Source: a virus
Lineage: Duplodnaviria > Heunggongvirae > Uroviricota > Caudoviricetes
DNA: 42,074 nt
Direction: 5' to 3' (one strand)
Virus record (IMG/VR): IMGVR_UViG_2913182230_000001
Location: 1 to 42,074 of that record
Position numbers: made by a program. Numbering within the stretch: position 1 is the first letter of the stretch; each line of letters starts with the position of its first letter. Positions 18,001 to 21,000 of this stretch are shown one piece after another.

Positions 18001-21000
18001 TCACTGATTACTCCGATCACCCTCGCAAACTTGTCACGCTAAACCCCAAACTCAAATCAACAGCCGCCGGACGTTACCAGCTTCTTTCCCGTTGGTGGGA
18101 TGCCTACCGTAAGCAGCTTGGCCTGAAAGACTTCTCTCCGAAAAGCCAGGGCGCTGTGGCATTGCAGCAGATTAAGGAGCGTGGCGCTTTACCGATGATT
18201 GATCGCGGTGATATCCGTCAGGCAATCGACCGTTGCAGCAATATCTGGGCTTCACTGCCGGGGGCTGGTTATGGTCAGTTCGAGCATAAGGCTGACAGCC
18301 TGATTGCAAAATTCAAAGAGGCTGGCGGAACGATCAGAGAGATTGAGGTATGAGCAGAGTAACCGCGATTATCTCCGCTCTGGTTATTTGTATCATCGCC
18401 TGCCTGTCATGGGCTGTTAATCATTACCGTGATAACGCCATCGCCTACAAAGAGCAGCGCGATAAGGCCGCATCCATCATCGCTGACATGCAGAAGCGTC
18501 AACGTGATGTAGCAGAACTCGACGCCAGATACACAAAGGAGCTTGCTGATGCTAACGCGACTATCGAAAGTCTCCGTGCTGATGTTTCTGCTGGTCGTAA
18601 GCGCCTGCAAGTCGCCGCCACCTGTGCAAAGTCAACGACCGGAGCCAGCAGCATGGGCGATGGAGAAAGCCCAAGACTTACAGCAGATGCTGAACTCAAT
18701 TATTACCGTCTCCGAAGTGGAATCGACAAGATAACCGCGCAGGTTAACTACCTGCAGGAATACATCAGGACTCAGTGCCTTCGATGATAGCGATAATTTT
18801 ACTCATCCGCGTTCTCAGTCTTGCCATGGCGACACGTCTCCGGAAGATGGGTTATCAGGAGAAAGTGTTGTCCATTGTTTTCAAAGTGAAAAGCGCGGGA
18901 TTCCGACGACAGAAGCGCCAATTCCGACAATCCGATCACGGATTCCGACGGAGCGCCAAATCTGGCCGGAACAAATCGGAATTCGTGGTCGAATTAAATC
19001 GGAAAGTGCGATCGGATTACATCGGAATCAATGGTCGATTTGGGTCGGAATACGCAGCGTTGAGATAAGAGCCAGTTCATTACATAGCTATATCTAATGG
19101 AGCCTGAAATAATTTGTCATTGTCATGACAACAAAATTCATTAATGATGGGCTCTCATTATACGGGAGGTAGATATGGCATTTCGTTATTTTGAACTTAC
19201 AGAAAATATTCCTTTTGAGGATGCAAGAGAGCTTCACGTACAGTTCAAACACCACTTAGAACATGTTGTAAAGGCGTCATTTATGCCAGGAACACATGAA
19301 AAGCATTTAATTGTTGAAGGCCGGGATGACGAATCGATAACACAGATATTTGGTGGGCATGATGAAAAGTTTATACATCTTTATCACATCGATGAAATGA
19401 AAAACGTGAATACTTAATCTAACCTCCTACGGCTGTTTTTTATTGCCATTACAAAAGCCATTCCCTACAGAGTGGCTTTGATAATGGCTTATACCTTACA
19501 CGGGATAACTTAACTGATATCCCTTTTAACGGATAAACGGAGCACAAATAATGGCAAAGCTCACCGACAAACAAGAGCTGTTTGCCCGTGAGTACCTGAA
19601 AGATCTGAATGGAACACAGGCAGCTATCAGGGCGGGCTACAGCGAGAAGACCGCCAATGAGCAGGCATCTCGATTATTAGCAAATGTTAATGTTCAAAAA
19701 TTCGTTGCTGAACTTAAATCCGCCCGCGTTGAGCAGACGGGTATAGATGCCGCCTATGTTCTTCGTAGGTTGGTTGAAATCGACCAGATGGATGTGCTCG
19801 ACATTCTCCTGCAAAACGGTGAGCTAAAGCCCATTAAAGACTGGCCTAAGGTATGGCGCACAACGTTATCAGGAATGGATGTTGTGGAGATGGTATCCGC
19901 AGATAGTGCAGCACTCCTGAAGAAAATCAAATGGCCTGATAAGGTTAAAAACCTCGAACTTCTTGGTAAGCATGTTTCTGTTCAGGCGTTTAAAGACAAC
20001 GTCAAAAATGAAGTGACTGGCGCTGATGGAGGACCAGTCAGAACAGAAATTACCAACTTAACGCCAGAGCAGGCTGCAGAGGCGTATAGAAAAATGATGG
20101 GCTAAGTATGCCGTTACCATTCCCCTTCGATTTTAAACATCCTGATTACCAGATGGTTTTTGAATGGCGGATGGAACGCCTACAGCGCATTCGCCAGAAT
20201 CCTGAAATATTGCCCGTATTGAAGCAGTTTTACCGAACCAATCCGGCTCAGTTCATCATCGACTGGGGCATGACAACGGACCCGCGTAATATTGATTATG
20301 GCCTGCCGGTGACCATTCCGTTTTTACTCTTCCCTAAGCAGGAGGAGTGGATCCACTGGATTATGGAACGCTGGAGCAATCGGGAGAATGGTATTACCGA
20401 AAAATCCCGTGAAATGGGGCTCAGTTGGACCGCGATCGGACTGGCCTGCTCGCTTTGTCTCTTCAACAAAGAAATGGTTATCGGTTTCGGCTCCCGTAAA
20501 GAGGAATACGTCGACAGTACCGGTGACCCGAAAGCATTGTTCTGGAAGGCGCGCAAGTTCGTGGAAACAGTACCTGTAGAGTTTCGCGGTTCGTGGAGCG
20601 AGAAGAAGCACGCGCCATATATGCGTGTTGAGTTTCCTGAAACTGGTGCCGTTATCAAAGGCGAGGCTGGCGATAATATTGGTCGTGGTGACCGTACCAC
20701 GCTTTATCTGGTTGATGAGGCTGCATTCCTTCAGCGCCCTCTGCTGATTGATGCGGCGTTGTCACAAACGACGCGTTGCCGTATCGACCTGAGTTCAGTT
20801 AACGGCATGGCTAACCCGTTCGCTCAGAAGCGTCATGGCGGGAAGATACCGGTATTCACATTCCACTGGCGGGATGATCCTCGCAAGGATGAAGAGTGGT
20901 ATCGCAGGGAATGCGAGAAAATCGATAATCCGGTGGTGGTGGCACAGGAACTTGATCTGAACTACAGCGCATCAGCGGAAGGCGTCCTGATTCCATCCGA

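What the first reader, a model, noticed from the sequence alone, without database searches (positions are those of the whole stretch)
18898..19055. Phased array of ATTCCGAC / GTCGGAAT octamers between the lysis cassette and terminase
Three forward copies of ATTCCGAC are followed by about seven inverted TCGGAAT-type copies spaced 10-13 bp apart, so successive sites fall on the same face of the helix. This looks like a multi-site protein-binding array. It lies about 500 bp upstream of the terminase small subunit gene, so a cos or packaging-recognition region is one possibility; iteron-like or partition-like binding is another. Track ORF 18775-19068 is probably just a translation of this repeat.
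Basis: seen in the sequence. Interest (0 to 1): 0.55.

Follow-up and report, generated by a model that had tools for sequence, protein, structure and literature searches.

The report
Leftover end of an IS21-family transposon
The octamer array is the transposase-binding left end of an IS21-family insertion sequence that landed in a small phage gene and then lost about 2.46 kb, so it is an ordinary mobile-element scar and not a phage packaging or replication site.

Summary
The repeats are real and far denser than chance. They are not a phage signal. Window 18794-19056 is 96% identical to the left end of an IS21-family insertion sequence (istA/istB) in the E. coli A28 chromosome. Full 2.6-kb copies with 5-bp target duplications occur on Klebsiella and Pantoea plasmids, and further copies in Yersinia, Erwinia and Serratia. 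Read on the minus strand from the terminus 5'-TG at 19056, the "inverted" octamers form four 23-bp direct repeats (L1-L4). Each has two half-sites 10 bp apart, which is the published geometry of IstA transposase binding at IS21 ends. The three "forward" octamers are an internal inverted block (21-bp period) upstream of the istA leader. Only 11 codons of istA remain. Sf6 and an E. coli prophage show the empty site, an intact 50-codon gene-65 homologue. Inserting the IS at GCGTT and deleting about 2.46 kb between two copies of TAATTTTACTCATC reproduces the window without gaps. Prophages with 98%-identical TerS lack the array, and no sequenced phage has it. ORF 18775-19068 is a chimeric read-through, not a gene. 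Ordinary; low interest.

The parts
18794..19056 (-). Truncated IS21-family insertion sequence. Only the left end is present: terminal repeats, the istA leader and the first 11 codons of istA.
   Evidence: 96.2% identity over 264 nt to the left end of the istA/istB element in E. coli A28. It aligns with the left ends of full-length copies in Klebsiella, Pantoea and Serratia plasmids and in Yersinia, Erwinia and Klebsiella genomes.
19034..19056 (-). L1, the terminal 23-bp repeat TGCGTATTCCGACCCAAATCGAC. The IS terminus 5'-TG is at 19056. The half-sites are ATTCCGAC and AAATCGAC.
   Evidence: The same terminus TGCGTATTCCGA is found at the right end of the A28, Klebsiella and Pantoea copies. Homology to the IS stops at 19056.
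19011..19033 (-). L2, CATTGATTCCGATGTAATCCGAT
   Evidence: 23-bp register. Conserved in all enterobacterial copies.
18988..19010 (-). L3, CGCACTTTCCGATTTAATTCGAC
18965..18987 (-). L4, CACGAATTCCGATTTGTTCCGGC
18898..18950 (+). Internal block of half-sites in the opposite orientation to L1-L4. ATTCCGAC lies at 18900, 18921 and 18942 (21-bp period) and AATCCGAT at 18929. The block sits between L4 and the istA leader. Inferred to be extra IstA sites, possibly regulatory.
   Evidence: Present in all relatives. A variant with one extra 21-bp unit occurs in the Klebsiella, Pantoea, Serratia, Yersinia and Erwinia sp. copies. Inverted copies inside the left end are also seen in distant IS21-family elements L019, L045 and L073.
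18828..18897 (-). istA 5' leader, with GGAG 9 nt before the ATG
   Evidence: Nearly invariant in the alignment of left ends.
18794..18827 (-). istA stub: ATG at 18827, MARLRTRMSKI, then the break
   Evidence: The annotated istA start in A28, Klebsiella and Pantoea maps here. Translation.
18794..18807 (+). Deletion junction: the 14-bp TAATTTTACTCATC shared by phage gene-65 codons 4-8 and the reverse complement of istA codons 8-12
   Evidence: Alignments A2 and A4. The in-silico reconstruction has exactly two copies, about 2.46 kb apart.
18784..18807 (+). 5' remnant of the phage gene-65 homologue (MIAIILLI...). Its ATG overlaps the Rz stop (ATGA).
   Evidence: Identical to the start of Sf6 gene 65 and of the 50-aa CDS in the E. 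coli S1 prophage.
19057..19063 (+). 3' remnant of the gene-65 homologue (GCGTTGA). GCGTT (19057-19061) is the inferred 5-bp target, of which one copy survives.
   Evidence: Sf6 and the S1 prophage read ...GGGGCT|GCGTTGAGATAAG without interruption. The Klebsiella and Pantoea copies have 5-bp duplications.
18775..19068 (+). Chimeric read-through ORF: the gene-65 start fused to the antisense strand of the IS end. Not a gene.
   Evidence: No Pfam hit. The same frame carries premature stops in 5 of the 9 relatives read in register (L008-L011, L015), and there is no conserved start inside the IS.

Best explanation
The array is the left terminal inverted-repeat region of an IS21-family insertion sequence. 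In an intact element, IstA transposase binds the 23-bp repeats. Its two N-terminal helix-turn-helix domains each contact one of the two half-sites, which lie one helical turn apart. Several IstA subunits on successive repeats synapse the two ends into a supercoiled transpososome, and IstB then activates it. In this prophage the element inserted, with istA antisense to the late operon, at GCGTT near the 3' end of a 50-codon gene-65 homologue just downstream of Rz. A later deletion of about 2.46 kb occurred between two copies of the 14-mer TAATTTTACTCATC, one in gene 65 and one in istA. It removed the right end, istB and all but 11 codons of istA. What remains is a single, immobile end. Shown here: homology to IS ends, the repeat geometry, the empty site, and junctions that match the reconstruction. 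Inferred: that IstA binds these particular sites (by analogy with IS5376), the order and mechanism of the insertion and deletion events, and that the relic is now inert.
For: - Window 18794-19056 is 96% identical to the left end of an istA/istB element in E. coli A28.
- Full 2613-bp copies occur on Klebsiella and Pantoea plasmids with 5'-TG...CA-3' termini and 5-bp target duplications, TCTTT and TCCCG.
- Their IstA scores 290 bits on NCBIfam transpos_IS21 (cut-off 160), with rve and Mu-transpos_C_2 domains. Their IstB scores 254 bits on IS21_help_AAA and 220 bits on PF01695.
- The right end carries the same terminus and two bipartite repeats.
- The array has four 23-bp units, each with half-sites 10 bp apart. 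This matches the published IS21-family TIR: direct repeats 23 bp apart, each with two conserved boxes about 10 bp apart that are contacted by HTH-1 and HTH-2 of IstA, and 5-bp duplications (PMC10122671; PMC11208146).
- Distant IS21-family relatives (about 45-50% IstA identity) have the same layout with different half-site sequences: 2-8 direct units, and in three of the twelve left ends printed an inverted copy before istA.
- Sf6 and the E. coli S1 prophage carry the uninterrupted target gene.
- In-silico insertion followed by deletion between the 14-mers reproduces window 18734-19123 without any gap.
Against: - No binding experiment exists for this element. IstA contacts are extrapolated from IS5376 of Geobacillus.
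- Only one end is present, so the target duplication cannot be confirmed in the window itself.
- A 14-bp identity between a 150-bp phage gene and a 2.6-kb IS is unlikely a priori (roughly 1e-3). The microhomology route is therefore post hoc, although it fits both junctions exactly.
- The role of the internal inverted block is not established for any IS21-family member that I could find in the papers read.
- The exact scar was not found in any other genome, so its history rests on this one sequence.
Confidence: 0.95

Rival explanations
1. The array is the phage's pac or cos recognition site. The small terminase subunit (Terminase_2 family, 19551-20105) would oligomerise on the phased octamers to start packaging.
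For: Position is the only support. The array lies between the lysis cassette and terS, about 500 bp upstream of terS. Some phages with small terminases (SPP1 is the case I recall from memory) have repeated recognition boxes upstream of and within the terS gene.
Against: - Prophages in E. coli RMDEC465 and CFSAN029787 encode TerS that is 180/184 identical, 69/70 in the N-terminal DNA-binding part. Between the lysis genes and terS they have only 2-3 scattered one-mismatch heptamers.
- None of 50,697 phage genomes matches the array at blastn sensitivity, and no IMG/VR contig carries the IS terminus.
- The same sequence forms the ends of a transposon on plasmids and chromosomes.
- Sf6 and the S1 prophage show an intact gene at the site.
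Confidence: 0.01
2. The array is an iteron-like replication origin or a partition (parS-like) site bound by a phage Rep or ParB protein.
For: Only the general look of phased direct and inverted repeats.
Against: - No rep or par gene is adjacent. The neighbours are Rz/Rz1 and an 80-aa ORF with no Pfam hit.
- The block is absent from all related phages.
- It is collinear, including the istA start codon and leader, with IS21-family left ends.
Confidence: 0.005
3. The relic is not inert. Retained after the deletion, it might act as a decoy for IstA from resident IS21-family copies, pair with another left end for IstA-driven rearrangement, drive antisense transcription into Rz/Rz1 from the istA promoter, or yield a functional 94-aa basic fusion protein (18784-19068) from the late transcript.
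For: All four L repeats, the inverted block and the leader are intact and 96% identical to a full-length copy. In vitro, IstA can integrate using two left ends alone (PMC10122671). The gene-65 ATG overlaps the Rz stop, so the fusion ORF could be translated.
Against: - There is no second IS end and no istA/istB in the window.
- The consensus scan finds no minus-strand promoter in the stub.
- The scar is unique to this sequence, so there is no sign of selection for it.
- The fusion ORF has no family match, and its frame is interrupted in IS relatives.
Confidence: 0.03
4. ORF 18775-19068 is a genuine phage gene, and the octamers are a by-product of a repetitive protein.
For: An open frame of 97 codons exists, and its product is repetitive and basic.
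Against: - Its first 8 codons from the ATG at 18784 are the start of gene 65. The rest is the antisense strand of an IS end.
- The frame is broken by stops in 5 of the 9 IS relatives read in register and runs out of the element into unrelated flanks in the others.
- No Pfam hit.
- The half-sites, not the codons, keep the 10/13-bp register.
Confidence: 0.005

Closest known systems
IS21-family element of E. coli A28 (NZ_CP028747.1, istA frameshifted) and its full-length relatives on K. pneumoniae plasmid pC240_2 (CP067933.1) and a Pantoea ananatis plasmid (NZ_CP054910.1)
   Same: The left end is the same sequence: 96% identity to A28 and about 92% for the plasmid copies over the whole IS. It shares the terminus TGCRTATTCCGA, four 23-bp L repeats, the internal inverted block, the istA leader and the start codon.
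   Different: The window keeps only 263 bp and lacks istA beyond codon 11, istB and the right end. The plasmid copies carry one extra 21-bp unit in the inverted block. I could not obtain an ISfinder name for the element.
IS5376 (Geobacillus stearothermophilus), the structurally characterised IS21-family member (PMC10122671, PMC11208146)
   Same: The architecture of the ends matches. Direct repeats lie 23 bp apart, each with two conserved boxes about one helical turn apart that are read by the tandem HTH domains of IstA. It also has a terminal CA, 5-bp target duplications and an istA-istB operon.
   Different: The half-site sequences are unrelated. IS5376 is described with two repeats per end (L1/L2, R1/R2). 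This element has four direct repeats plus an inverted block at the left end and two at the right.
Mu and Tn7 transposon ends (multiple MuA / TnsB binding sites)
   Same: Several copies of a transposase-binding sequence are arrayed asymmetrically at the two ends. The transposases are related DDE enzymes with tandem DNA-binding domains (comparison drawn in PMC10122671).
   Different: These are different families, with different site sequences and spacing. They are not relevant to membership here.
Phage pac sites with repeated TerS boxes (for example SPP1 pacL/pacR; recalled from memory, not tested here)
   Same: Repeated short boxes near terS, and a Terminase_2-family small subunit in this phage.
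   Different: The array is IS-derived and absent from phages with nearly the same TerS. The resemblance is positional only.

Membership tests
IS21 family insertion sequence (full-length relatives of the fragment) | Two consecutive genes: istA (DDE transposase with N-terminal HTH domains) followed by istB (AAA+ helper ATPase) | tested here: met
   In L003, istA is 509 aa: NF033546 transpos_IS21 at 290 bits (cut-off 160), plus PF00665 rve and PF22483. istB is 247 aa: NF038214 at 254 bits (cut-off 200) and PF01695 at 220 bits.
IS21 family insertion sequence (full-length relatives of the fragment) | Terminal inverted repeats ending 5'-TG...CA-3' | tested here: met
   The left end reads TGCRTATTCCGA and the right end TGCGTATTCCGA, in inverted orientation.
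IS21 family insertion sequence (full-length relatives of the fragment) | Multiple direct repeats at each end (at least L1/L2 and R1/R2), about 23 bp apart, each with two conserved boxes about 10 bp apart | tested here: met
   There are four 23-bp units at the left end with half-site spacing 10/13, and two units of 22-23 bp at the right end. The criterion comes from PMC10122671.
IS21 family insertion sequence (full-length relatives of the fragment) | Short target-site duplication (5 bp in many members) | tested here: met
   TCTTT flanks the Klebsiella plasmid copy and TCCCG the Pantoea copy. The A28 copy has none, because it lies among other IS fragments.
IS21 family insertion sequence (the window's copy itself) | A complete element with both ends and both genes | tested here: not met
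   Only the left end and 34 nt of istA are present. There is no second terminus and no istA/istB ORF in the window. It is a remnant, not a functional member.
IS21 family insertion sequence (the window's copy itself) | IstA binds the repeats | not testable with these tools
   Inferred from the IS5376 cryo-EM and biochemistry (PMC10122671, PMC11208146). No data exist for this element.
Phage pac/cos packaging site | Conserved next to the cognate terminase genes in phages that share the same small terminase | tested here: not met
   Prophages with 98%-identical TerS lack the array. It is absent from 50,697 phage genomes and from IMG/VR.
Phage pac/cos packaging site | Virion DNA ends or terminase binding map to the site | not testable with these tools
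   Requires sequencing of virion DNA or TerS binding assays.
Iteron origin / partition site | Adjacent cognate Rep or ParB gene, and conservation with the replicon | tested here: not met
   The neighbours are Rz/Rz1 and an 80-aa ORF without family hits. The array is absent from related phages.

The most novel reading that the evidence does not exclude
The solo IS21-family left end, with twelve intact IstA half-sites (eight direct, four inverted), might be retained in the prophage because it does something. It could be a decoy or landing pad for IstA from resident elements, a source of antisense RNA against Rz/Rz1, or the template of an expressed basic fusion peptide made from the late transcript. 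A related, slightly more likely point of interest is that the internal inverted 21-bp block of this IS subgroup could be an undescribed autoregulatory operator for istA.
Probability: 0.03. Interest if true: 0.35.

Novelty: already known. Interest (0 to 1): 0.08.

Why it matters
It matters mainly for annotation. A feature that looks like a packaging or iteron array turns out to be a transposon scar. The 97-codon ORF over it should not be called a gene, and the phage's real packaging signal must be sought elsewhere. It is also a clean example of how a prophage can lose an insertion sequence. A deletion between two copies of a 14-bp sequence removed about 2.46 kb and left one transposon end plus a broken small gene. 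Neither point changes what is known about IS21-family elements or phage packaging.

Tried and rejected
- **pac/cos site:** rejected because prophages with near-identical TerS lack the array and no phage collection holds it.
- **Iteron or partition site:** rejected for lack of cognate genes and because the block is collinear with IS ends.
- **Genuine coding ORF:** rejected.
- **MITE-like complete non-autonomous element:** rejected because there is no second terminus, and the inner boundary lies inside istA homology.
- **Known structured RNA:** Rfam finds only the tRNA in the whole window.
- **Tandem Repeats Finder:** reports nothing here because the units are too degenerate. The 23-bp register came from the repeat finder and autocorrelation instead.
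- **Same scar elsewhere:** exact searches for the deletion junction in species-representative genomes and for the IS/phage junction in IMG/VR found nothing, so the scar was not seen in any other genome.
- **Name of the element:** I could not get an ISfinder name. PGAP calls it only "IS21 family transposase".
- **Older literature:** searches for the IS21 terminal-repeat literature (L3 repeat) in the held library returned only the two structural papers.

Full report
**Observation**

The repeats exist and are not chance.
- Six of the nine exact TCGGAAT/ATTCCGA heptamers in the 42-kb window lie between 18900 and 19051.
- With one mismatch allowed there are nine within 152 bp. The densest 170-bp stretch in 30 shuffled windows held 3-6.
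- On the + strand, ATTCCGAC starts at 18900, 18921 and 18942, with a degenerate AATCCGAT at 18929.
- TCGGAAT-type copies start at 18966, 18976, 18989, 18999, 19012, 19022, 19035 and 19045.
- Their spacing alternates strictly 10 and 13 bp, so the real unit is a 23-bp repeat with two half-sites. This is repeat finder family D1. Lag-23 autocorrelation is 0.61, reached by 0 of 2000 shuffles.
- The forward block has a 21-bp period.

**What it is**

Megablast of 18780-19180 against 5,426 complete E. coli genomes gave one informative hit. Window 18794-19057 is 96.2% identical to a stretch of the E. coli A28 chromosome that overlaps the start of an annotated "IS21 family transposase".

In that locus, istB and a frameshifted istA lie on one strand, and the matching stretch is the about 230 bp upstream of istA plus its first 34 nt.

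The other end of the A28 element begins TGCGTATTCCGATGATTCCGG TCAGTGATTCCGGCGATTTCGA. That is the same terminus and the same half-sites in inverted orientation.

Full-length relatives (2613 bp, about 92% identical) sit on a Klebsiella pneumoniae IncF plasmid, inserted between traQ and traF, and on a Pantoea ananatis plasmid.
- Their ends are 5'-TG...CA-3'. They are flanked by 5-bp duplications, TCTTT and TCCCG.
- Their IstA passes the NCBIfam IS21 transposase model (290 bits, cut-off 160) and has rve and Mu-transposase C-terminal domains.
- Their IstB passes the IS21 helper-ATPase models.

Further copies occur in Yersinia, Klebsiella, Erwinia (several in E. tracheiphila), Serratia and Rahnella.

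**Anatomy in the window, read on the minus strand from the terminus at 19056**

| Part | Coordinates | Sequence or note |
|---|---|---|
| L1 | 19056-19034 | TGCGTATTCCGACCCAAATCGAC |
| L2 | 19033-19011 | CATTGATTCCGATGTAATCCGAT |
| L3 | 19010-18988 | CGCACTTTCCGATTTAATTCGAC |
| L4 | 18987-18965 | CACGAATTCCGATTTGTTCCGGC |
| Spacer | 18964-18951 | 14 bp |
| Inverted block | 18950-18898 | half-sites in the opposite orientation |
| istA leader | 18897-18828 | GGAG 9 nt before the ATG |
| istA stub | 18827-18794 | MARLRTRMSKI, then homology stops |

The "three forward copies" are the internal inverted block.

**How such an array works**

The following is from the literature, not tested here.
- IS21-family terminal inverted repeats are composed of at least two direct repeats, L1/L2 and R1/R2.
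- In IS5376 each repeat has two conserved boxes separated by about 10 variable base pairs. HTH-1 and HTH-2 of one IstA subunit contact the two boxes.
- The repeats are 23 bp apart. Two complete repeats are needed for integration.
- An IstA tetramer synapses two ends in a negatively supercoiled configuration, and insertions are flanked by 5-bp duplications (PMC10122671). IstB then remodels and activates the complex (PMC11208146).

The geometry measured here is the same: a 23-bp period, half-sites 10 bp apart, and 5-bp duplications in the full-length copies.

Distant relatives (45-50% IstA identity) fetched from genomes have the same plan with different half-site sequences. They carry 2-8 direct units of 22-23 bp at the left end. 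In three of the twelve left ends printed (L019, L045, L073) there are one or two inverted copies before istA. Both the large copy number and the inverted copies are therefore family traits, not peculiarities of this phage. The role of the inverted block is my inference. It may provide extra IstA sites, possibly autoregulatory because they lie just upstream of the istA leader.

**How it got here**

Phage Sf6 and a prophage of E. coli S1 have, immediately after Rz, a 50-codon gene (Sf6 gene 65). Its ATG overlaps the Rz stop.
- Aligned with the window, both read ...GATAATTTTACTCATC|ATCCTT...(gene 65)...GGGGCT|GCGTTGAGATAAG.
- The window reads ...GATAATTTTACTCATC|CGCGTTCTCAG...(IS end)...GAATACGCA|GCGTTGAGATAAG.
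- The right junction is the IS terminus abutting GCGTT, the presumed 5-bp target.
- The left junction lies in TAATTTTACTCATC. This 14-mer is present both in gene-65 codons 4-8 and, as the reverse complement, in istA codons 8-12 (ATGAGTAAAATTA).

I inserted the A28 element in silico at GCGTT of the S1 prophage and deleted the DNA between the two 14-mers (about 2.46 kb). The result was collinear with window 18734-19123 with no gap. All differences were point substitutions, and 16 of the 32 lay in a divergent stretch of Rz at 18734-18754.

The order of events and the slippage or microhomology mechanism are inferred. Such a 14-bp coincidence is improbable a priori, so this reading is post hoc, but it explains both junctions exactly.

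**Rivals**

- *Packaging site.* The small terminase here is a Terminase_2-family protein. The S1 prophage TerS differs in its N-terminal 63 residues, so it is not a fair control. Prophages in E. coli RMDEC465 and CFSAN029787 encode TerS that is 180/184 identical, 69/70 in the N-terminal part. Between the lysis genes and terS they have a Rha-family gene and only 2-3 scattered one-mismatch heptamers. No genome among 50,697 phages matches the array at blastn sensitivity, and no IMG/VR contig holds the IS terminus.
- *Iteron or partition readings.* These have no cognate genes nearby and fail for the same comparative reasons.
- *Coding ORF.* ORF 18775-19068 begins with the gene-65 start and then reads the antisense strand of the IS end. 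It has no family hit. In 5 of the 9 IS relatives read in register the frame has premature stops, and in the others it runs out into unrelated flanks.
- *Structured RNA.* Rfam finds nothing here.

**Context**

The window is a prophage integrated at tRNA-Thr(CGT) next to proA, in an Escherichia genome whose proA-thrW region is 97-98.5% identical to E. coli. Among complete E. coli genomes the IS is rare: 1 of 5,426 matched the array in the megablast search. The exact scar was not found elsewhere.

**Verdict**

The general idea of a phased protein-binding array is right, and so is the suspicion about the ORF. The proposed functions (cos/pac, iteron, partition) are not supported. The feature is a truncated left end of an IS21-family insertion sequence, which is a known kind of element with a known mode of action, and here it is most likely an inert scar. 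Interest is low.

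Noticed in passing
window 1-2622: The window starts in proA (1-1254, aldehyde dehydrogenase family), followed by tRNA-Thr(CGT) at 1369-1444 and a tyrosine integrase on the minus strand (1459-2622). It is therefore a prophage integrated at thrW. The proA-thrW region is 97.4-98.5% identical to E. coli genomes.
   Followed up: partly
window 18784-18807 and 19057-19063: A 50-codon gene (homologue of Sf6 gene 65, function unknown) is destroyed by the IS insertion and deletion. In relatives its ATG overlaps the Rz stop codon (ATGA), which suggests translational coupling to Rz.
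   Followed up: partly
window 19551-20105 versus L006 2502-3053: The small terminase is mosaic. Compared with the E. coli S1 prophage, residues 64-184 are nearly identical but the N-terminal about 63 residues (the presumed DNA-recognition part) are much more diverged. Other prophages (L079, L080) carry the window's N-terminal version. This looks like domain swapping in the packaging-specificity part.
   Followed up: partly
window 19105-19140: An imperfect inverted repeat, TGAAATAATTTGTCAT / ATGACAACAAAATTCA, has 4 bp between its arms. It overlaps the only sigma-70-like match in the region (19120-19148) and lies just upstream of an 80-aa ORF (19175-19417) that has no family hit. The stretch is conserved at about 95% in several E. 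coli prophages. It could be an operator or promoter; unexplained.
   Followed up: no
L003/L004/L005/L008/L009 versus window, L001, L010, L011, L015, L055 (left ends): The IS occurs in two left-end variants that differ by one 21-bp unit (CGGAATCCGTGATCCTGGCTC) in the internal inverted block. The window's relic is the short variant, as in E. coli A28, Erwinia tracheiphila and Rahnella.
   Followed up: partly
L014 (Raoultella scottii) and L005 (Serratia plasmid): Other damaged copies of the same IS exist. In L014 the terminal repeats are replaced by unrelated sequence right up to the istA leader. In L005 a second istA follows the first where istB should be, which suggests a nested IS21-family insertion.
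   Followed up: no
window 40821-42074 (minus strand): A 417-aa ORF at the right edge of the window, just after the tail-fibre and tail-fibre-assembly genes, has no Pfam hit. It may be a prophage moron or the first host gene beyond attR.
   Followed up: no
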